Positions 1-39,370 of a stretch of 40,266 nt of DNA are shown piece by piece; within the stretch, counting starts at the first letter, position 1, and every line of letters starts with the position of its first letter. Source of the stretch: a virus. A program made the translations under genes and the position numbers. Where the stretch lies: IMG/VR virus record IMGVR_UViG_3300045988_083036, positions 1-40,266 of that record; one strand, given 5' to 3'. Below the pieces are notes generated by a model. The model searched no databases. It was not told where the DNA came from and was given only the letters and a program-made list of their open reading frames with translations.

Positions 1-55
1 AAAGCCATAAAAACCGATGGGTTTTCTGAGAAACCCACGGAAACCGATGGGTTTT
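1..55. repeat. Terminal overlap copy 1, identical to 40212-40266
   Basis: Compared by hand: aaagccataaaaaccgatgggttttctgagaaacccacggaaaccgatgggtttt occurs at both ends. Confidence 0.95.
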
Positions 56-744
56 TAGATTGCCGAATTTCAGCAGGTGAGAAACCCACGGAAACCGATG
101 GGTTTTTAGATTGCCGAATTTCAGCAGGTGAGAAACCCACGGAAACCGATGGGTTTTTAGATTGCCGAATTTCAGCAGGTGAGAAACCCACGGAAACCGA
201 TGGGTTTTTAGATTGCCGAATTTCAGCAGGTGAGAAACCCACGGAAACCGATGGGTTTTTAGATTGCCGAATTTCAGCAGGTGAGAAACCCACGGAAACC
301 CATAAAAACCAAGAATTAATAATTAAAAATTACACTGATACTAAAGTATCAGATACTACTACTGTTGTTGAGCACGATTTGGACGCAGACCTTTCAAAGA
401 TTGCGCACCACTTCCAAGAGGCTTTTGGAGACCTGCCGCCGTCTGTCGGCTACAAAATAAGCAGCTGGCGGCAAACGTTCAGCGCTGAGATGATTATTCT
501 GGCAATCGACCGAGCTGCCGAGGCTGGGAAGCGGAACTGGACGTATGTAGACGGCACTCTAAGAAACTGGAAGAGGGACGGAATAAAAACACCAGCCGAG
601 GTAGCTGCAAGCGATGAACAGTGGCAAAGCCGCCAGCAGCAGGCGCGGCCTGGCAGATCGACCCGGCAGCCCGCAGAAAGCACGAGAGACCAGCTTGCCC
701 GGGTGCTGGGCAACATGGACAAAGAAAGGGGTTTTGACACATGA
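1..744 (+). CDS. Replisome organizer / replication initiator, DnaD-like C-terminal domain (3' part of the gene that starts at 39939 and wraps)
   Basis: Frame 1 is open from base 1 and is in phase with ATG 39939 across the overlap. It contains five 17-aa repeats (EKPTETDGFLDCRISAG). The DnaD-type motif SWRQTFSAEMIILAIDRAAEAGKRNWTYVDGTLRNWKRDGIKT follows. Confidence 0.85.
   Translation, partial: KAIKTDGFSEKPTETDGFLDCRISAGEKPTETDGFLDCRISAGEKPTETDGFLDCRISAGEKPTETDGFLDCRISAGEKPTETDGFLDCRISAGEKPTETHKNQELIIKNYTDTKVSDTTTVVEHDLDADLSKIAHHFQEAFGDLPPSVGYKISSWRQTFSAEMIILAIDRAAEAGKRNWTYVDGTLRNWKRDGIKTPAEVAASDEQWQSRQQQARPGRSTRQPAESTRDQLARVLGNMDKERGFDT
28..300 (+). repeat. Five perfect 51-bp tandem repeats plus an 18-nt partial sixth copy; candidate origin iterons
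   Basis: The unit is gagaaacccacggaaaccgatgggtttttagattgccgaatttcagcaggt, starting at 28, 79, 130, 181 and 232, with a partial copy at 283. Each unit contains the inverted repeat AAACCCA-N10-TGGGTTT and a GAAACC direct sub-repeat. Confidence 0.9.
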
Positions 745-5779: not shown

Positions 5780-5856
5780 GTTCCGGTAGCTCAACTGGTA
5801 GAGCAGCAGCCTATTGAAGCAGCAAGTAGTTGGTTCAAATCCATCCCGGAACACCA
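5780..5856 (+). tRNA. tRNA-like gene with an 8-nt anticodon loop (CTATTGAA) and encoded CCA
   Basis: Acceptor stem GTTCCGG/CCGGAAC and D arm GCTC-AACTGGTA-GAGC. T arm GTTGG-TTCAAAT-CCATC has one T.T mismatch. The anticodon stem GCAGC/GCAGC has a central A.A. Confidence 0.6.
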
Positions 5857-6258: not shown

Positions 6259-6394
6259 GCCGCCATAGCTCAATTGGGAGAGCGCCGCCCATTTAAGGCG
6301 GGACAACGTTGGTGACACCACGGGAACATCACTGCACAGCCAACCACTGCGCACATCCATTCCGCGGGTGCTGGTTCAAATCCAGCTGGCGGCA
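6259..6394 (+). tRNA. tRNA-like gene interrupted by a 68-nt insertion between the anticodon stem and the T arm; loop CATTTAA (A at position 33)
   Basis: Acceptor stem GCCGCCA/TGGCGGC and D arm GCTC-AATTGGGA-GAGC. Anticodon arm CCGCC-CATTTAA-GGCGG. An insert occupies 6302-6369, followed by a perfect T arm GCTGG-TTCAAAT-CCAGC. Confidence 0.5.
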
Positions 6395-26383: not shown

Positions 26384-26455
26384 GGCTATGTAGCTCAGTT
26401 GGTAGAGCAGGGCGTTACACCGCCTATTGTCGCTGGTTCAATTCCAGCCATAGCA
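26384..26455 (+). tRNA. tRNA-like gene (Val-UAC-like) whose best anticodon stem leaves a 6-nt loop (TTACAC); G1.A72 mismatch, no CCA
   Basis: D arm GCTC-AGTTGGTA-GAGC and T arm GCTGG-TTCAATT-CCAGC are perfect. The anticodon stem GGGCG/CGCCT is shifted by one nucleotide. Confidence 0.5.
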
Positions 26456-26537
26456 AGCCCGAAAATGCTTGAACGGTTTTGAATAGTGCGCATACGTCAA
26501 AATTGCGATAGCAGAAGTAGGCATTTTTAGTTGATAC

Positions 26538-26586: not shown

Positions 26587-26660
26587 AATCCCCTGCTTCG
26601 CCGAAGCCCTGCGTTCCACGCGGGTACTTTATAGGCAAAGTGGGGGATTGTTTTATTCGC
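26587..26660 (+). ncRNA. Compact four-way-junction (cloverleaf-like) RNA followed by a T tract
   Basis: The closing stem is AATCCCC/GGGGATT. It encloses GCTTC-gcc-GAAGC, CCTGCG-ttcca-CGCGGG and ACTTT-ataggc-AAAGT. GTTTTATT follows. Confidence 0.4.
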
Positions 26661-29419: not shown

Positions 29420-30556
29420 TCACCCTTGAGCCTTCCTGAATGCAGCTGTCGTTGCAGCTGCCAAATCTTCTCGCTGGCCCTGCAATTCATGATGGTACAC
29501 GCCGGAAGTGTCCATGTTCTTGCTGTGACCAACCAGCATTTTTAGCTGGCTGTCAGTCAGGACGCTTGATTCAACGCTGACAAAGGTGTGCCGCAGCTCG
29601 TAAAGTGAGACTTTCGGCTCAATCCCGTTTGCTTCCTGATACGATTCCCATCGGCGATAGAGCGTATGCTCTGACGGAATCTGAAACAGCGGCGTATTGT
29701 ATTGTAGCAGTATGCCTTGAGCCTTTAGGAGCTGTACCTGCGCCTCATAGGCGTCCCGTGCTTCCTTGCCCATGTCAAAAGAGCGGATGGCGTTTTCATT
29801 CTTTCCGGTGGTCTGCTCCCGGTGCACGTTGATGCTGCGCCGAAGATTGACCGTGTTCCCTTTGATGTCACCATACCAGAGACCAATCAGCTCCCCGGGG
29901 CGCAGGCCGGTCGCAACTGCAAAGCGGTAGGCGTAGATATATTCATCAAATACCAGCTTTCCATAGTAGGTGCGGGTTTCTACGCTAAACAAAACCTTCA
30001 GGGCGGTGGGCTGCAAGATCGTGCGTTTCCCCATCCTGGCATTCTTCGGGATAGACAGGTCGGGGTGGAGCGTCGTGTACTTGTTCCTTCGGCACCACTT
30101 GACAAAGGCGGTTTCCGCTGCCCGGATCGTCATAAGCGTCTTTCGGCTCAACGGCTGGTTTGAGATGGGCTTGCGCTGGTTCTTTTTCTGTGAGCGCTTC
30201 CGGAACGAAACGTCAATGGCCTTTTGAAGATCGCCCTCGGTTAACTCGTCAATGCGGATATTTCCACAGGTCGGCAGGATATAGCAGTCCCCATAACGCC
30301 GGCATTGTGTCACATAGGACGTCCCGCAAGTCAGCTTCAACTCTTCCACCCACTCCGAATAAAGGGCACTGACTTTCTTTTTCCCGTCTCTGATGCTATC
30401 ATCAAGCCATGCATCCGCTTTTGCGTTTGCTTCCCGTTGTCCTGTCCGGCCCGGCGTGCTGCTGTAAAACCGTTTGCGGGTGCCGTTCTTCTGAACCGCG
30501 ATGCACCAGCGCTTTTCCTTTTCCACCCAAAATGCCGTGTTGACCCGTTTTTTCAT
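29420..30556 (-). CDS. int: Tyrosine integrase
   Basis: Motifs YELRHTFVSV and LVGHSKNMDTSGVYHH. A GGAGGTGG RBS precedes ATG 30556; the ORF track extends to 30679. Confidence 0.9.
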   Translation of the reverse strand: MKKRVNTAFWVEKEKRWCIAVQKNGTRKRFYSSTPGRTGQREANAKADAWLDDSIRDGKKKVSALYSEWVEELKLTCGTSYVTQCRRYGDCYILPTCGNIRIDELTEGDLQKAIDVSFRKRSQKKNQRKPISNQPLSRKTLMTIRAAETAFVKWCRRNKYTTLHPDLSIPKNARMGKRTILQPTALKVLFSVETRTYYGKLVFDEYIYAYRFAVATGLRPGELIGLWYGDIKGNTVNLRRSINVHREQTTGKNENAIRSFDMGKEARDAYEAQVQLLKAQGILLQYNTPLFQIPSEHTLYRRWESYQEANGIEPKVSLYELRHTFVSVESSVLTDSQLKMLVGHSKNMDTSGVYHHELQGQREDLAAATTAAFRKAQG

Positions 30557-30722
30557 AAAATCCACCTCCATACACAAGCGTACACTGTGCCGCTGTCCTT
30601 GGGCCGGCGGCGTTTTTTTCTTTGCTGCGGGGCGGCTTCCGGCTGCTTCTTCCCGCCCCACGGACAAAAGAAGCACCATCCGGGATCTCCTTCCGGCAGC
30701 ATGCTCTCACGCATTTCATGGC

Positions 30723-33651: not shown

Positions 33652-33680
33652 TTTACAATTCTGTGATAAAGTAGTATAAT
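33652..33680 (+). promoter_or_regulatory. Early promoter copy A
   Basis: TTTACA-17 nt-TATAAT, inside a block of about 55 bp that is repeated at 36230-36285. Confidence 0.7.
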
Positions 33681-34025: not shown

Positions 34026-34277
34026 ATGAACGCACTTTCTATCAACATCCCCGCAAACTTCGCTGCAGATTGCAATAACACCCTCAAGCGGTACAACGCC
34101 GCCCAGACCGACGCCGAGCGCCGTGCGGTGCTTGACCGCCAGACGGTGCAGGGCCTGTGTTGGGCGCTCAAGTTCGTCTGCCAGCTTCAGACCGCTTACA
34201 TGAGTGAGAAGGAGCTGAAGCACGCGATCCGCCTCACCCACTTCCGCGGCACTGTATGCCCGGAGTTTAAGGCTTGA
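34026..34277 (+). CDS. Hypothetical early protein (83 aa)
   Basis: AAAGGAGA RBS. ATG 34026 lies inside ORF 33879..34277. Confidence 0.6.
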   Translation: MNALSINIPANFAADCNNTLKRYNAAQTDAERRAVLDRQTVQGLCWALKFVCQLQTAYMSEKELKHAIRLTHFRGTVCPEFKA

Positions 34278-34293
34278 AAGGGAAATCTATTGA

Positions 34294-34361
34294 CCCGCCT
34301 GATGATGGCTGCCCGGCAGCAGCCGAAACCATCCCGGTAACGTCACCGGGATGGTCGCGGG
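34294..34361 (+). ncRNA. Hammerhead ribozyme motif, type I topology (HH-1); predicted cleavage after C34356
   Basis: The fold reads CCCGC | CUGAUGA U | GGCUGC-ccggca-GCAGCC | GAAA | CCAUCCCGG-uaacguca-CCGGGAUGG | UC / GCGGG. Confidence 0.75.
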
Positions 34362-34398
34362 AACCACCGCAAACAATCAATAATCGGAGGTATGAAAA

Positions 34399-35325
34399 AT
34401 GTCTGCAAATGTTGAAACGATGTTCTATGTCCGGGAGAAGCCTTGGCACGGTCTGGGAACCATGGTGCAGGAAGCACCCACCAGCGCAGAGGCGCTGAAG
34501 CTGGCCGGTCTGGACTGGACTGTCGAGGCCCGCGATATGTGGCTGAACGGCGGCTATGAGCCGATTCCCGGCTACAAGGCAAACGTCCGTAGCTCGGACA
34601 ACAAGGTTCTGGGCGTGGTCAGCAACAAGTACCGCATCGTCCAGAACGCGGAGGCTTTCGCGTTCACAGATGCGCTGATCGGCGGCGATGTCCACTATGA
34701 GACCGCTGGAAGCCTACTGGACGGTAAGAAGATTTGGCTGCTGGCAAAGCTGCCAGATTCCGAAATCTGCGGGGACAAGACCGAAACCTATATGTGCTTC
34801 TCCAACACGCATGACGGATCCGGCGCCGTCCGCGTCTGCATGACCCCGGTTCGCGTGGTCTGCAACAACACGCTGAACCTTGCGCTAGATACCGCGCAGC
34901 GAGCATGGAGCGTCCGTCATGTAGGCGATATCAACACTAAGCTGGTAGAGGCCCGGCAGTGCTTAGACATGGCCAATAAGTACATGGATGAACTTGCAAC
35001 CCGCGCCGACCAGATGGCAAACACCACGGTCAACGATGCACGGCTGCGGGAGGTTCTGGACAGCCTGTTCCCGGAAGCGGACGATATGACCGACCGCCAG
35101 AAGCGCCATGTGCAGGACATGAAGGACGGTTACATGGTCTGCATGATGGCTCCTGACCTCGTGAAATTCCGCAATACCGCATGGGGCGCGGTGAACGCAA
35201 TGAGTGATTTTGTCACCCACAGCGCCCCTCACCGGAACACGAAGAATTATCAGGAAAACAACTGGAACAACGTAATGAACGGACACTTCCTGATGGATGC
35301 CATGGCAAAGGCCGTCACCCGGTAA
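34399..35325 (+). CDS. DUF932 / phage-plasmid-like protein (TIGR03299-type)
   Basis: N-terminus MFYVREKPWHGLG...; 308 aa. Confidence 0.7.
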   Translation: MSANVETMFYVREKPWHGLGTMVQEAPTSAEALKLAGLDWTVEARDMWLNGGYEPIPGYKANVRSSDNKVLGVVSNKYRIVQNAEAFAFTDALIGGDVHYETAGSLLDGKKIWLLAKLPDSEICGDKTETYMCFSNTHDGSGAVRVCMTPVRVVCNNTLNLALDTAQRAWSVRHVGDINTKLVEARQCLDMANKYMDELATRADQMANTTVNDARLREVLDSLFPEADDMTDRQKRHVQDMKDGYMVCMMAPDLVKFRNTAWGAVNAMSDFVTHSAPHRNTKNYQENNWNNVMNGHFLMDAMAKAVTR

Positions 35326-35379
35326 ATATTTGATGGCTGTGCTATCTGGCCTAACGGGCGCTTTTGGAGGAACTGAAAG

Positions 35380-35922
35380 ATGTCTGATTCTATCGGAAAG
35401 AAAATTCGTGCAGCACGAAAAGACGCTCACATCACGCAGATTCAGCTTGCCCAAAGAATGGGTGTGACCAAGCAGACGGTGAGCCTGTACGAGAATGGCG
35501 GGGTCAATCCGACGGCCAAGATGCTGGCCAAGTTCGCAGCTGGGCTGAAAGTCCCTGTTGGCTTTTTAGCCGGTGACGAAGAGGGGCAGCTTGCTGGACG
35601 GTGGGTCAGCGTCAAAGTGCGCCTGCCAGAGCTGGACGAGGACGAACCATTTGCCCGCTGCATTGTGAATGTCATTCGGTGGTGTGAGGGCTGGACAGGC
35701 CCTTGGAACCAGCCGGAACCCGACTTGAATGAAGAAGAGTTCACTGCTGCCGCTGCCTATAACCCGGAGCAGAAAACTTTCACAGTGTATGATGGCTTTG
35801 GCGGCTCGATGGTGATAAACGCTCTACTCGACCCGAACGATTTTAGCGGTTCATCCGGTATGCGAATCACCCACTGGATGGAACTTCCCGCAACCTTTGG
35901 ATTCTGGGAGGCACCTCGATGA
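35380..35922 (+). CDS. XRE-type HTH fused to DUF551
   Basis: HTH motif IRAARKDAHITQIQLAQRMGVTKQTVSLYENG, followed by RWVSVKVRLPE...THWMELP. Confidence 0.7.
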   Translation: MSDSIGKKIRAARKDAHITQIQLAQRMGVTKQTVSLYENGGVNPTAKMLAKFAAGLKVPVGFLAGDEEGQLAGRWVSVKVRLPELDEDEPFARCIVNVIRWCEGWTGPWNQPEPDLNEEEFTAAAAYNPEQKTFTVYDGFGGSMVINALLDPNDFSGSSGMRITHWMELPATFGFWEAPR

Positions 35923-36152
35923 AACAATACTGCCGGTACTGCTGCAACGCCTGTCTGAACGATGACGAGCTGGCCTATTGCAGCTACAAAGACGAGATGC
36001 TAGACGGCCCTGCCCTGCGGCGGCTGAATCACTGCAAGGGCTTCCAGTTCTGCGAGATTGATGTCTTGACCCAAACCCGTATCTACAAACCCAGATCCGC
36101 AAAGCCTCCCTCTGAGGACCCAGAGGATTTCGGGCAGCAAACCCTGTTTTGA
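35919..36152 (+). CDS. Cys-rich hypothetical protein (77 aa)
   Basis: It begins MKQYCRYCCNACLNDDELAYCSYK...NHCKGFQFCE. Confidence 0.55.
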   Translation: MKQYCRYCCNACLNDDELAYCSYKDEMLDGPALRRLNHCKGFQFCEIDVLTQTRIYKPRSAKPPSEDPEDFGQQTLF

Positions 36153-36160
36153 TGGGCGAA

Positions 36161-36183
36161 ACCGGCGCTTCCGGTATTTTTTT
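36161..36183 (+). terminator. Short GC hairpin with a T7 tract
   Basis: ACCGG-cgctt-CCGGT followed by ATTTTTTT. Confidence 0.5.
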
Positions 36184-36236
36184 GGCTTTCCTTTAGAAAA
36201 ATCGAGAAACAATACAGATAAAATACAGAAAAGGTA

Positions 36237-36265
36237 TTTACAAATCTGTAATAAAGTAGTATCAT
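36237..36265 (+). promoter_or_regulatory. Early promoter copy B
   Basis: TTTACA-17 nt-TATCAT. The flanks repeat promoter A (atttacaa.tctgt.ataaagtagtat.ataaaa.cagaaaaacagt). Confidence 0.65.
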
Positions 36266-36308
36266 AAAAGCAGAAAAACAGTGTCCCACAAAACAGGAGG
36301 AACAGAAA

Positions 36309-36533
36309 ATGAAATTCTATTATGACGGCGTTCTAATCTGCTGTGCAAAGGTCAAAGAGTACAAATACGCAGTTGTCTATCCGGACAGCAAGAAAGTATG
36401 GGCGATGCATTCCCGGCATTGTTCCTTGGAGGCTGCCCAAGAGTTGCTCAAACGGGTAAAGCGCGGAATGTCCTTTTACGACCCAGAAAAGGCCGCATCG
36501 CTGCGTGTTGTCCCGCTTGAAAAACGTGCTTAA
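36309..36533 (+). CDS. Hypothetical protein (74 aa)
   Basis: First ORF after promoter B, with an AGGAGGA RBS. Confidence 0.6.
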   Translation: MKFYYDGVLICCAKVKEYKYAVVYPDSKKVWAMHSRHCSLEAAQELLKRVKRGMSFYDPEKAASLRVVPLEKRA

Positions 36534-36534
36534 C

Positions 36535-36601
36535 CCCATCTGATGATGGCCCTGTGGCAAGGGCCGAAACCACCCGGCAGCCAGCCGGGCAAGGTCGTGG
36601 G
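36535..36601 (+). ncRNA. Hammerhead ribozyme motif, type I topology (HH-2); predicted cleavage after C36596
   Basis: The fold reads CCCAU | CUGAUGA U | GGCCC-uguggcaa-GGGCC | GAAA | CC-a-CCCGGC-agcca-GCCGGG-caa-GG | UC / GUGGG. Confidence 0.7.
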
Positions 36602-36630
36602 AGCCACCCACAGAAAGGAGAACCGATATC

Positions 36631-36858
36631 GTGTCGAAGTATTACACCACCAAAGAAACTGCCAAAGCGCTTGGCGTATGTCAGGCAAGGGTCCTTCAGC
36701 TCAGGAAGCAGGGCCTGCTGGACGCTTATTCTCACGGAGAGAAGGGCAGCAAGAGCAAGTTCTACTTCCTCGCTGATGACGTTGAGCACTACAAGCAGAG
36801 CCGAGACAACCCGGAGCAGCCGCCGTTACGCAAGGTCAGCACCAAGGAGACCGCCTGA
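36631..36858 (+). CDS. Excisionase/MerR-like HTH protein (GTG start)
   Basis: Motif YTTKETAKALGVCQARVLQLRKQGLL. AAAGGAG RBS. Confidence 0.6.
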   Translation: MSKYYTTKETAKALGVCQARVLQLRKQGLLDAYSHGEKGSKSKFYFLADDVEHYKQSRDNPEQPPLRKVSTKETA

Positions 36859-38545: not shown

Positions 38546-39370
38546 ATGGGTTTCACTTCACGCGCTGGCGCTGCTGCGCCGAATACCACTACCACAGTTC
38601 AGAGCCGCTCCTTCGCTGCTCAGGTCAAGCAGAGCGAAGCAATGCAGCCGGTCGCAGAATCTAAGCCGGTCGAAATCGAGAGCATGGACGGCCAGCATCT
38701 GACCGTCACCTTTGACGATGTGCGCGACTTCATCTGCAAGGAAGCTACCATTGCAGAGTGCCGTATCTTCTTGGAAACGTGCAAGCAGTACCATCTCAAC
38801 CCTTTCACCAAGGAAGCCTACCTCATCCACTATGACAACAAGAACGGTGATACGGCCAGTACCATTGTTCTGGGCAAGACCTGCTACATGAAGATGGCAG
38901 AGGCGCACCCTCAGTATGATGGCTTTGAGGCTGGCGTGATTGTCTTTGTTCCTGAAGTTGGTGAGCTCATCCACCGCGAAGGATCCATCGTCTACGAGGA
39001 CGAGAAGCTGGTCGGCGGCTGGGCTAAAGCCTACCGTAAGGACCGCAGCCGCCCCTTCTACGAGGAAGTGAAACTGAGCGAGTACGACACCAAGAAATCC
39101 CTGTGGGTAACGAAGCCTGCAACGATGATTCGTAAGGTAGCCCTTGTCCACGCGCTGCGCGAATCCTTCCCGGCCACGTTTGGCAGCCTCTACGATGAGA
39201 GCGAGGTTCCGGTAGCTGCAGAAGCATCCTACCGCGAGGTCGAGAACGAGCAGCCCGAAATCGGCGCTATGCAGCCCCGCAAGCTGAAGCCGAAAAAAGA
39301 GCAGCCCGAACCGTTTGCAGTCGAAACCACCGACACTAACGATGATCCGTTTGGCGGTGATGCCGAATGA
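38546..39370 (+). CDS. recT: RecT-family single-strand annealing recombinase
   Basis: Motifs KEAYLIHYDNKNG and KPATMIRKVALVHALRESFP. Confidence 0.85.
   Translation: MGFTSRAGAAAPNTTTTVQSRSFAAQVKQSEAMQPVAESKPVEIESMDGQHLTVTFDDVRDFICKEATIAECRIFLETCKQYHLNPFTKEAYLIHYDNKNGDTASTIVLGKTCYMKMAEAHPQYDGFEAGVIVFVPEVGELIHREGSIVYEDEKLVGGWAKAYRKDRSRPFYEEVKLSEYDTKKSLWVTKPATMIRKVALVHALRESFPATFGSLYDESEVPVAAEASYREVENEQPEIGAMQPRKLKPKKEQPEPFAVETTDTNDDPFGGDAE

What the first reader, a model, noticed from the sequence alone, without database searches (positions are those of the whole stretch)
34294..34361. Hammerhead ribozyme motif (HH-1) in the gap between a small early ORF and the DUF932 gene
Every core element of a hammerhead can be read directly from the + strand.

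- Stem I 5' strand CCCGC (34294-98).
- CUGAUGA (34299-305).
- One extra U (34306).
- Stem II GGCUGC/GCAGCC with loop ccggca.
- GAAA (34325-28).
- A 9-bp stem III, CCAUCCCGG/CCGGGAUGG, with an 8-nt loop.
- U16.1-C17 (34355-56).
- Stem I 3' strand GCGGG.

Stems II and III are capped and stem I is open, which is type I topology. The predicted scissile bond lies between 34356 and 34357. The only departure from the textbook core is the single U inserted between A9 and G10.1. The motif occupies an otherwise unexplained 121-nt intergenic gap.
Basis: partly seen in the sequence, partly recalled or inferred. Interest (0 to 1): 0.85.

Follow-up and report, generated by a model that had tools for sequence, protein, structure and literature searches.

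The report
Type I hammerhead ribozyme in prophage operon
The 68-nt motif is a well-conserved self-cleaving hammerhead RNA motif sitting between two early genes of a temperate gut phage; it belongs to a known kind of element (hammerheads that punctuate prophage operons) that the public RNA-family models fail to detect.

Summary
Window 34294-34361 (+) has every hammerhead core element, type I topology and one extra U after A9. Chance does not explain it: simulated 40-kb sequences gave 0.045 minimal matches each, and none with stems of 5 bp or more. A second copy, HH-2, lies at 36535-36601.

Rfam gives no hammerhead hit. That negative is uninformative, because textbook type I hammerheads in related loci also stay below the gathering scores.

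A purpose-built covariance model found 146 relatives in phage and bacterial contigs.
- The core is invariant except at N7.
- 10 of 14 modelled pairs show compensatory changes.
- The nucleotide after A9 is variable (U, G, A, C or absent).
- Loop II covaries with the tail just 3' of stem I, indicating a pseudoknot. In HH-1 itself this contact is only 2-3 bp.

These hammerheads sit a median of 4 nt after the upstream stop codon and about 44 nt before the next start codon. They travel with the downstream gene. HH-1 is itself a recombinant, with the crossover at the cleavage site.

Most likely role (inferred): intercistronic self-cleavage that gives DUF932 mRNA its own 42-nt leader with a 5'-OH and a 5' hairpin. 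It is a new member of a known kind. Cleavage was not tested.

The parts
34294..34298 (+). HH-1 stem I, 5' strand (CCCGC)
   Evidence: Pairs with 34357-34361. In the family these pairs covary (CG/UA/GU, GC/AU).
34299..34305 (+). HH-1 core C3-U4-G5-A6-U7-G8-A9 (CUGAUGA)
   Evidence: Conserved in 135-138 of 138 relatives, except N7, which is C or U.
34306..34306 (+). Extra U between A9 and G10.1
   Evidence: In the family this position is U 105, G ~20, A 2, C 2, absent 11. It is a tolerated, variable junction nucleotide.
34307..34324 (+). HH-1 stem-loop II (GGCUGC / loop CCGGCA / GCAGCC)
   Evidence: Five of six modelled pairs have compensatory changes. The loop carries the GGC-type pseudoknot partner seen across the family.
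34325..34327 (+). HH-1 core G12-A13-A14
   Evidence: Invariant in 138 of 138 relatives.
34328..34355 (+). HH-1 stem-loop III, from A15.1 to U16.1 (10-11 bp)
   Evidence: A15.1-U16.1 is kept in 137 of 138 relatives and the third pair covaries CG/GC. Distal sequence and length vary freely among relatives.
34356..34357 (+). C17 and the predicted scissile bond (between 34356 and 34357; GUC triplet)
   Evidence: Position 17 is C 129, A 4, U 4, G 1 in relatives. Cleavage itself is inferred, not shown.
34357..34361 (+). HH-1 stem I, 3' strand (GCGGG), and the 5' end of the predicted 3' product
34362..34370 (+). 3' tail AACCACCGC. It is the candidate pseudoknot partner of loop II (CC 34364-65 or CCG 34367-69). 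Its CCGC (34367-70) can pair with GCGG (34357-60) to form a 5'-terminal hairpin after cleavage.
   Evidence: Pseudoknot covariation across the family. Hairpin in the folds. The equivalent hairpins in HH-2 (GUGGG/CCCAC) and L079 (CGGGAA/UUCCCG) change on both sides.
34386..34401 (+). Shine-Dalgarno GGAGG (34386-90) and the ATG of DUF932 (34399). The leader after cleavage is 42 nt.
   Evidence: The family median from cleavage site to start codon is 44.5 nt.
34399..35325 (+). DUF932 gene, the cistron that the hammerhead travels with
   Evidence: Pfam PF06067, E = 8e-59. Homology to L001-L007 begins at the 5' edge of the hammerhead.
34026..34277 (+). Upstream small ORF whose stop codon lies 17 nt before HH-1
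   Evidence: No Pfam or PHROG match. It is replaced by unrelated genes in L001-L007.
33652..33680 (+). Promoter-like site (TTTACA-17-TATAAT, 11 of 12) that could drive the rightward early operon
   Evidence: This is a consensus match only.
36535..36601 (+). HH-2, a second type I hammerhead of the same family, with the scissile bond at 36596/36597
   Evidence: 85.5 bits with model R1. It starts 1 nt after the stop codon of the 74-aa ORF and ends 29 nt before the GTG of an HTH_17 excisionase-like ORF (36631); its cleavage site lies 34 nt upstream of that GTG.
36602..36611 (+). HH-2 tail AGCCACCCAC. GCCAC (36603-07) pairs with loop II GUGGC (36554-58). CCCAC (36607-11) can pair with GUGGG (36597-601) after cleavage.

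Best explanation
HH-1 is a type I hammerhead self-cleaving ribozyme motif. It lies in the intercistronic gap of the rightward early operon of a temperate phage, probably a Faecalibacterium/Oscillospiraceae phage.

**Proposed mechanism**
1. As the polycistronic RNA is made, stems I-III assemble the conserved core.
2. The 2'-OH of C34356 attacks the adjacent phosphate. This leaves a 2',3'-cyclic phosphate on the upstream RNA and a 5'-OH on G34357.
3. The short 5-bp stem I then dissociates.
4. The new 5' end refolds into a small terminal hairpin (GCGG...CCGC, 34357-34370).
5. DUF932 mRNA is left with its own fixed 42-nt leader: hairpin, unstructured CA-rich spacer, then GGAGG.

The leader is therefore independent of whichever gene lies upstream. 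The ribozyme thus acts as the 5' boundary of a portable expression cassette, and HH-2 does the same for the excisionase-like gene at 36631.

**What is shown**
- Motif, conservation and covariation.
- Intercistronic placement.
- Linkage to the downstream gene.

**What is inferred**
- Cleavage in vivo.
- The refolding of the 5' end.
- Any effect on mRNA stability or translation.
For: - **Anatomy and chance:**
- **Family:** 146 relatives were found with model R1. The core is invariant except at N7. Cells are 96.7% paired, against 84.9% in shuffles and 24-44% in slid controls. Ten of 14 pairs have double changes, in 214 cells.
- **Tertiary contact typical of natural hammerheads:** the longest loop II / tail Watson-Crick helix averages 3.64 bp. 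Permuted partners give 3.01 +/- 0.07, and 0 of 1000 permutations reach the observed value. At least 15 different covarying helices occur, such as GGGA/UCCC, GGUC/GACC, GGAUA/UAUCC and CCCU/AGGG.
- **Placement:** the hammerhead starts a median of 4 nt after the upstream stop codon. The next start codon with an RBS lies a median of 44.5 nt after the cleavage site. In 132 of 154 cases there is a same-strand downstream ORF, and these ORFs fall into 50 unrelated protein clusters.
- **Linkage to the downstream gene:** against L001-L007, identity is 56-60% (background) in the 100 nt upstream, 84-87% in the hammerhead, 88-97% in the leader and 94-99% in the CDS. The pattern is the same for HH-2.
- **5' hairpin of the 3' product:** in 91% of 99 non-redundant products, at least 3 of the first 5 nt pair downstream. 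Mean folding energy is -7.5 kcal/mol against -3.1 for a control segment (Wilcoxon 4e-14). The three DUF932-lineage hairpins differ on both strands.
- **Context:** integrase, repressors and RecT are present, with a promoter-like site at 33652-33680.
- **Literature:**
  - Clustered hammerheads flank genes in prophages, cleave in vitro and in E. coli, and were proposed to process long phage transcripts (PMC3088659).
  - The function is still regarded as open (PMC6765202).
Against: - No cleavage assay or transcript-end data are available.
- Rfam models give no hit for HH-1.
- The stabilising pseudoknot is only 2-3 bp in HH-1 (CGG/CCG, or GG/CC with a C.A mismatch), against 5 bp in HH-2. The cause is a recombination, or a G-to-A change, in the tail. 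The copy may therefore be slow at physiological Mg2+.
- Nearest-neighbour folding of HH-1 and HH-2 in their genomic context never forms stem I. Alternative folds are 2.6-5.8 kcal/mol better than the enforced hammerhead fold. These models ignore core tertiary interactions and pseudoknots.
- The hairpin signal is modest against shuffles (mean z = -1.3) and is partly a consequence of the G-rich 5' end.
- The benefit to the phage (stability, translation, insulation) is entirely inferred.
Confidence: 0.6

Rival explanations
1. The hammerheads mainly serve at the DNA level. On this view they are conserved 55-70-bp 'linker' repeats between genes. Such repeats would give homologous recombination a foothold and so drive the modular (mosaic) exchange of early genes between phages. 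RNA cleavage would be secondary or incidental.
For: - Mosaic breakpoints coincide with the hammerheads.
- The window's HH-1 is itself a recombinant. The upstream ORF and ribozyme body are of the L009/L012 type. The tail, leader and DUF932 are of the L002 type. The crossover lies within 34353-34371, around the cleavage site.
- The second hammerhead of L010 and L023 combines an HH-1-type stem II with an HH-2-type stem I and tail.
- Up to 9 copies occur in 8 kb in L086.
Against: - A DNA repeat would not need an invariant catalytic core together with freely covarying stems.
- It would not need a covarying pseudoknot.
- It would not need a strict same-strand orientation with the genes.
- Recombination at a conserved sequence is an expected by-product, not evidence of selection for it.
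Confidence: 0.12
2. HH-1 and HH-2 act together. They would excise the 2.24-kb DUF932-HTH segment (34357-36596) as a discrete RNA with 5'-OH and 2',3'-cyclic-phosphate ends. That RNA would then be ligated, for example by RtcB, into a circular or spliced RNA.
For: - Two same-strand hammerheads flank the block.
- The end chemistry of hammerhead products suits RtcB-type ligation (established knowledge).
- Perreault et al. raised this possibility for clustered hammerheads (PMC3088659).
Against: - Perreault et al. looked for spliced or circular products and found none (PMC3088659, section read).
- A terminator-like hairpin with a T-run (36161-36175) and a promoter-like site (36237-36265) lie between the two hammerheads. 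They may therefore sit on different transcripts.
- Each hammerhead is linked to its own downstream gene, not to its partner hammerhead.
Confidence: 0.05
3. HH-1 is a decaying or inactive copy. The motif would be inherited from an active family. In this genome, however, the extra U, the broken pseudoknot and competing folds would make it catalytically silent. The gap would then function only as an ordinary leader with an RBS.
For: - The pseudoknot is reduced to 2-3 bp after a tail change.
- MFE folds in context lack stem I.
- There is no Rfam hit.
Against: - All core positions and all three stems are intact.
- Close relatives with the same loop/tail combination persist (L001, L016).
- The extra nucleotide is the majority state of an obviously selected family.
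- An extra nucleotide at this position lowers the rate only moderately in CChMVd (PMC1636495).
Confidence: 0.15
4. The motif is a chance match, or an ordinary structured element such as a terminator, an attenuator or part of a coding sequence, and not a ribozyme.
For: - The stems are GC-rich.
- A 74-codon ORF (34274-34498) formally spans it.
Against: - The chance expectation is about 0.045 minimal matches per window, and 0 with stems this long.
- No T-run follows the stems, and no terminator-like site was called there.
- Relatives differ in length by amounts that are not multiples of three (56, 66, 67 and 68 nt), with compensatory rather than synonymous change.
Confidence: 0.02

Closest known systems
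Clustered hammerhead ribozymes of prophages (Perreault et al. 2011, PMC3088659; e.g. Clostridium scindens, Agrobacterium tumefaciens ardA locus)
   Same: - Canonical hammerhead core.
- Several same-strand copies flanking single genes or short gene blocks in prophage early or accessory regions.
- Pseudoknot-type contact stabilising stems I and II.
- Variable identity of the flanked genes.
- Proposed role in cutting long phage transcripts.
   Different: - It is not the same locus: the C. scindens primer has no match in the window.
- Most members here carry an extra nucleotide after A9.
- This work adds three features:
  - linkage to the downstream cistron;
  - a conserved distance of about 44 nt to the start codon;
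  - a candidate 5'-terminal hairpin.
  I did not find these described in the papers read.
Rfam RF00163 Hammerhead_1 (type I; seed dominated by eukaryotic repeat-associated hammerheads)
   Same: Same topology (stem I open, stems II and III capped) and the same core. A no-insert sibling of this family aligns correctly to the model (L084 2971-3026, 22.7 bits).
   Different: HH-1 gives no hit even at E<=10. It has an extra U, a 10-11-bp stem III and a 6-bp stem II, and it uses a 3'-tail pseudoknot instead of a loop II / stem I bulge contact.
[quoted passage not shown]
   Same: One additional nucleotide at exactly the same core position. In CChMVd it causes only a moderate loss of rate.
   Different: Those are type III viroid or eukaryotic retroelement hammerheads with other biology (rolling-circle replication, retrotransposition). 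Here the inserted base is mostly U and is dispensable within the family.
RAGATH-1 / pseudoknot-containing hammerhead (RF03152; crystal structure in PMC11300833)
   Same: Bacterial or phage-associated hammerhead variant that relies on a pseudoknot.
   Different: In RAGATH-1 the pseudoknot replaces helix II. HH-1 keeps an ordinary hairpin helix II, and its pseudoknot would be an additional loop II / tail contact. There is no RF03152 hit on HH-1.
RiboJ synthetic insulator (sTRSV hammerhead followed by a hairpin; from my own knowledge: Lou et al. 2012, Clifton et al. 2018)
   Same: Functional analogy only. A self-cleaving hammerhead placed just upstream of an RBS removes variable upstream RNA. It leaves a defined leader that begins with a hairpin.
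   Different: RiboJ is engineered from a type III plant satellite ribozyme. The natural role proposed here is inferred, not demonstrated.

Membership tests
Hammerhead ribozyme class (structural/biochemical definition) | Conserved core: C3 U4 G5 A6 N7 G8 A9, G12 A13 A14, the A15.1-U16.1 pair, and position 17 not G | tested here: met
   All are present in HH-1. In 138 distinct relatives each is conserved in 135-138 sequences, N7 is C or U, and H17 is C 129 / A 4 / U 4 / G 1. One extra U follows A9, which is a known tolerated position (PMC1636495, PMC4209133).
Hammerhead ribozyme class (structural/biochemical definition) | Three helices meeting at the core, maintained by compensatory change | tested here: met
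   The MFE of the 68-mer is the three-way junction. 96.7% of cells are paired, against 84.9% in shuffles and 24-44% in slid controls. Ten of 14 pairs have changes on both sides. Caveat: the alignment was fitted by the model.
Hammerhead ribozyme class (structural/biochemical definition) | Type I topology: stem I open, stems II and III closed by loops | tested here: met
Hammerhead ribozyme class (structural/biochemical definition) | Tertiary contact holding stems I and II parallel (loop-loop, loop-bulge or pseudoknot), needed for fast cleavage at physiological Mg2+ | tested here: inconclusive
   For the family, the loop II / 3'-tail pseudoknot is supported: 3.64 bp against 3.01 +/- 0.07 with permuted partners, with many covarying helices. 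In HH-1 itself only 2-3 bp are possible, whereas HH-2 has 5 bp.
Hammerhead ribozyme class (structural/biochemical definition) | Site-specific self-cleavage 3' of position 17, giving 2',3'-cyclic-phosphate and 5'-OH ends | not testable with these tools
   This needs in vitro transcription and cleavage assays, or mapping of 5'-OH ends.
Rfam hammerhead families (RF00163, RF00008, RF02275-7, RF03152) as operationally defined | Covariance-model score at or above the family's gathering threshold | tested here: not met
   There is no hit in the window at gathering thresholds and none at E<=10 on 34200-34460.

Controls:
- A textbook type I hammerhead at L049 4442-4490 reaches only 26.6 bits (RF03152, GA 56.3) and 21.1 bits (RF02275, GA 52).
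- A no-insert sibling at L084 2971-3026 reaches 22.7 bits for RF00163, GA 34.

I therefore do not file HH-1 under any Rfam accession. I file it only under the ribozyme class.
Prophage-clustered hammerheads (Perreault et al. 2011) | Multiple same-strand hammerheads flanking genes within a prophage or phage genome | tested here: met
   There are two copies, at 34294-34361 and 36535-36601, both on the + strand. The window encodes an integrase, repressors and RecT. Relatives carry up to 9 copies per 8 kb. At least 120 pattern matches were found in viral contigs.
RAGATH-1 pseudoknot hammerhead (RF03152) | Helix II replaced by a pseudoknot formed with a separate upstream hairpin loop | tested here: not met
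   HH-1 has a conventional 6-bp hairpin helix II and no RF03152 hit.

The most novel reading that the evidence does not exclude
These phage hammerheads would be natural 'insulator cassettes'. The ribozyme, its pseudoknot-forming tail and the leader would form one unit that moves with the downstream gene.

After cleavage the tail would switch partners. It would leave stem I and the pseudoknot and form a 5'-terminal hairpin. That switch would make cleavage irreversible and protect the 5'-OH mRNA. Any early gene would then be expressed identically wherever recombination drops it.

The conserved ribozyme sequence would at the same time act as the recombination joint that creates the mosaicism.
Probability: 0.3. 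Interest if true: 0.6.

Novelty: new member of a known kind. Interest (0 to 1): 0.35.

Why it matters
Hammerheads in prophages have been known since 2011, so finding one is not surprising. Their biological role in bacteria and phages is still open (PMC6765202).

This locus and its relatives offer a tractable case, for three reasons:
- A ribozyme is tied to a defined downstream gene.
- The leader length is conserved, and there is a testable switch between pseudoknot and hairpin.
- Natural recombinants, including the window itself, have uncoupled the pseudoknot partners.

The work also exposes a practical blind spot. Current Rfam hammerhead models miss a widespread bacterial and phage type I subfamily found in many phyla.

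Tried and rejected
- **Rfam.** A gathering-threshold scan of the window and a permissive scan of the locus gave no hammerhead hit. I rejected this as evidence against the motif after controls on textbook and sibling hammerheads.
- **Same locus as the tested C. scindens hammerheads?** I checked whether the window is the Clostridium scindens tandem-hammerhead locus tested by Perreault et al. Their forward primer has no match within 3 mismatches. Their supplements hold no CUGAUGAUGG string.
- **Promoter in place of the hammerhead?** In distant DUF932 loci (L025-L077) I thought a sigma-70 promoter might replace the hammerhead. The consensus scan does not support this for L027, L048 or L061, so I dropped it. 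The conserved GGTTAGCAAAAC motif there remains unexplained.
- **Known phages.** A search for close relatives found only two weak, unannotated hits.
- **Loop II / loop III pairing (GGC/GCC).** I rejected this by eye. It is not conserved in HH-1 and is geometrically implausible, because stems II and III stack coaxially.
- **RBS masking.** The hammerhead 5' half (GCCU...UGAU) pairs with the RBS region in the MFE fold. I did not pursue this, because it rests only on CCU/AGG complementarity that any Shine-Dalgarno sequence provides.
- **Model R1 is too family-specific.** It does not detect the small canonical hammerheads of L049-L072. Those came only from my own descriptor scan.

Full report
**1. 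Observation**

Reading 34100-34560 confirms every element at the coordinates given.

| Element | Sequence | Coordinates |
|---|---|---|
| Stem I, 5' strand | CCCGC | 34294-98 |
| Core | CUGAUGA | 34299-305 |
| Extra nucleotide | U | 34306 |
| Stem II | GGCUGC/GCAGCC, loop CCGGCA | 34307-24 |
| GAAA | GAAA | 34325-28 |
| Stem III | 9 bp, plus A15.1-U16.1 | 34329-54 |
| U16.1-C17 | UC | 34355-56 |
| Stem I, 3' strand | GCGGG | 34357-61 |

- The motif lies in the 121-nt gap between the stop codon of a small ORF (34277) and the ATG of a DUF932 gene (34399).
- On its own, the 68-mer folds into exactly the three-way junction (-39.0 kcal/mol, z = -4.9).
- My descriptor scan of both strands found this site and one more, HH-2, at 36535-36601.
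- Two hundred simulated 40-kb sequences gave 0.045 minimal matches each, and none with all stems of 5 bp or more.

**2. The database negative**

- Rfam 15 gives no hammerhead hit in the window at gathering thresholds, and none at E<=10 on 34200-34460.
- Seven related loci that contain textbook type I hammerheads also gave no hammerhead hit at gathering.
- One of those, L049 4442-4490, reaches only 26.6 bits for RF03152 and 21.1 bits for RF02275, against thresholds of 56.3 and 52.
- A no-insert sibling of the present family (L084 2971-3026) aligns correctly to RF00163 but scores 22.7 bits against 34. Its neighbour with the inserted nucleotide gets nothing.
- The Rfam negative therefore reflects the models, not the motif.

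**3. Comparative evidence**

*Close relatives.*
- The DUF932 protein retrieved 80 viral loci.
- The motif precedes DUF932 in all loci with 90% or more identity, and in L079, which has 53% identity.
- In L079 the extra U is absent, stems I and II carry compensatory changes, and position 17 is A.

*Wider distribution.*
- A DNA pattern for the extra-U form hit at least 120 stretches in genome contigs and at least 120 in viral contigs.
- Hosts include many Clostridia and Oscillospiraceae (among them a Faecalibacterium MAG carrying close copies of both HH-1 and HH-2: L138, L193). Other hosts are Desulfosporosinus, Paenibacillus, rhizobia and cyanobacteria.
- The pattern also hit FtsK-like coding sequences, which are false positives.

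*Covariance model.*
- Model R1, built from 15 sequences, found 146 matches in 84 sources.
- In the 138 distinct rows:
  - the core is conserved in 135-138 sequences at every position except N7 (C 76, U 61);
  - G12, A13, A14 and A15.1 are invariant;
  - position 17 is C 129, A 4, U 4, G 1;
  - the position after A9 is U 105, G about 20, A 2, C 2, or absent in 11.
- Pair counts: 96.7% of cells are standard pairs, against 84.9% in shuffles (0 of 500 reach the observed value) and 24-44% when partners are slid.
- Ten of 14 pairs have changes on both sides, in 214 cells. The alignment was fitted by the model, which favours the structure somewhat.
- This is the signature of a selected hammerhead.
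- The extra nucleotide is a tolerated, variable junction residue. [quoted passage not shown]

**4. Tertiary contact**

- Across 110 non-redundant members, loop II is complementary to the 10 nt that follow stem I.
- The longest Watson-Crick helix averages 3.64 bp. Permuted partners give 3.01 +/- 0.07, with a maximum of 3.22 in 1000 permutations.
- Many different covarying helices occur: GGC/GCC, UGGC/GCCA, GGGA/UCCC, GGGU/ACCC, GGUC/GACC, GGUU/AACC, GGAUA/UAUCC, GACU/AGUC and CCCU/AGGG.
- This is the kind of pseudoknot that Perreault et al. reported for all three hammerhead types (PMC3088659).
- HH-2 has a 5-bp version (GUGGC 36554-58 with GCCAC 36603-07).
- HH-1 has only CGG/CCG (34314-16 with 34367-69), or GG/CC next to a C.A mismatch.

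**5. Why HH-1's contact is weak**

- A six-way alignment shows the window is a recombinant.
- The upstream ORF and the ribozyme body, up to stem III, match L009/L012.
- The tail, the leader and DUF932 match L002.
- The crossover lies within 34353-34371, around the invariant cleavage-site sequence.
- This uncoupled a CCGGCA loop, which is partnered with AGCCA in L008-L024, from its tail, which is now AACCA.
- L016 shows the same G-to-A state in an otherwise L009-like context. The third pair is therefore not strictly required.

**6. Genomic logic**

- In the family, the hammerhead starts a median of 4 nt after the stop codon of the upstream ORF.
- The next start codon with an RBS lies a median of 44.5 nt after the cleavage site (IQR 42-60).
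- Downstream proteins fall into 50 unrelated clusters. DUF932 is the largest.
- For the window, the cleavage site lies 42 nt (HH-1) and 34 nt (HH-2) upstream of the downstream start codon.
- Against L001-L007, the 100 nt upstream of HH-1 is at background identity (56-60%). The hammerhead (84-87%), the leader (88-97%) and the CDS (94-99%) are conserved.
- HH-2 shows the same pattern with its excisionase-like HTH_17 gene.
- The ribozymes therefore belong to the downstream cistron and mark mosaic boundaries.
- The window is a temperate phage. It has an integrase (29420-30679, - strand), repressor-like HTH proteins, then a rightward early operon with a promoter-like site at 33652-33680, and RecT at 38546-39370.
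- A terminator-like hairpin (36161-36175) and a second promoter-like site (36237-36265) lie between HH-1 and HH-2. The two may therefore be on different transcripts.

**7. The 3' product**

- The first 32 nt after the cleavage site were folded for 99 non-redundant members.
- In 91% of them, at least 3 of the first 5 nt (the stem I 3' strand) pair with downstream sequence.
- Mean folding energy is -7.5 kcal/mol, against -3.1 for a control segment (Wilcoxon 4e-14). The mean z against shuffles is only -1.3.
- In the DUF932 lineage the hairpins are GCGG/CCGC (HH-1, 34357-60 with 34367-70), GUGGG/CCCAC (HH-2) and CGGGAA/UUCCCG (L079). They differ on both strands.
- I read this as a post-cleavage refolding of the new 5' end. 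It is an inference of moderate strength.

**8. Caveats**

- In genomic context, nearest-neighbour MFE folds of both hammerheads lack stem I. Alternatives are 2.6-5.8 kcal/mol more stable than the enforced hammerhead fold. These models ignore core tertiary interactions and pseudoknots.
- No experiment or transcript data were available.

**9. Interpretation and rivals**

- The best-supported explanation is an intercistronic self-cleaving ribozyme. It would give the downstream gene a fixed, context-independent leader with a 5'-OH and a terminal hairpin.
- Functionally this is like the engineered RiboJ insulator (my own knowledge).
- It is consistent with the processing hypothesis of Perreault et al. 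and with the 2019 review, which states that the purpose is still undefined (PMC6765202).
- Rivals considered:
  - a DNA-level role as recombination linkers, supported as a by-product;
  - excision and circularisation of the 2.24-kb block, which is disfavoured and by the negative result reported in PMC3088659;
  - an inactive, decaying copy;
  - chance or an ordinary structured element, which is refuted.

**10. Classification**

- I file HH-1 under the hammerhead ribozyme class (type I), and with the prophage-clustered hammerheads described in 2011.
- I do not file it under any Rfam accession, because the score criterion was tested and not met.
- It is not a RAGATH-1 pseudoknot hammerhead (PMC11300833), because helix II is an ordinary hairpin.
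- Novelty: a new member of a known kind.
- Interest is modest. It rises somewhat because the family offers a clean system for the open question of what phage hammerheads are for, and because it exposes a detection gap.

Noticed in passing
window 36535-36601 (+), tail to 36611: A second type I hammerhead of the same family (HH-2). It starts 1 nt after the stop codon of a 74-aa ORF and ends 29 nt before the GTG of an HTH_17 excisionase-like ORF; its cleavage site lies 34 nt upstream of that GTG. It has a 5-bp loop II / tail pseudoknot (GUGGC/GCCAC).
   Followed up: yes
window 34353-34371: Recombination junction inside HH-1. The upstream ORF and ribozyme body are of the L009/L012 type, and the tail, leader and DUF932 are of the L002 type. 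L010 and L023 also carry a chimeric second hammerhead, with an HH-1-type stem II and an HH-2-type stem I and tail.
   Followed up: partly
window 26587-26649 (+): DUF3800-VIII RNA motif (RF03075), 68 bits against a gathering score of 40.2, next to a tRNA-like gene at 26384-26456.
   Followed up: no
window 6259-6394 (+): tRNA-like match (51 bits) with an insertion of about 65 nt between the anticodon arm and the T arm. ARAGORN does not call it.
   Followed up: no
window 5780-5856 and 26384-26456 (+): ARAGORN reports tRNAs with irregular anticodon loops: a 4-nt 'attg' and a 2-nt 'ac'. Rfam scores both as tRNA. They could be unusual or suppressor-type phage tRNAs.
   Followed up: no
window 27-300: A perfect tandem array of 5.4 copies of a 51-nt unit, with 100% matches. 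Each unit contains a small hairpin (CCCACGGAAACCGATGGG). It could be an iteron-like or origin repeat.
   Followed up: partly
L079 2064-2118 (+): A type-P5 twister ribozyme (RF02684), 47.9 bits against 37.6. It lies about 750 nt upstream of that locus's hammerhead and DUF932 gene. This fits the known co-occurrence of twister and hammerhead ribozymes.
   Followed up: no
L025-L047, L074, L077, about 60-100 nt upstream of the DUF932 start: A conserved GGTTAGCAAAAC... motif occupies the position that the hammerhead holds in the window's lineage. It does not match the sigma-70 consensus scan. Its function is unknown.
   Followed up: partly
L086 (8 kb, 9 hits), L171 (7 hits), L151 (5 hits): Dense arrays of this hammerhead family lie between nearly every small gene in some Clostridia MAG prophage regions.
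   Followed up: partly
L087, L099, L100, L102, L121, L134, L135 and others: The DNA pattern also matches a conserved FtsK/SpoIIIE-like coding segment (..GCCGA CCTGATGATGAC..GTCGAAACC..). These are false positives and not hammerheads.
   Followed up: yes
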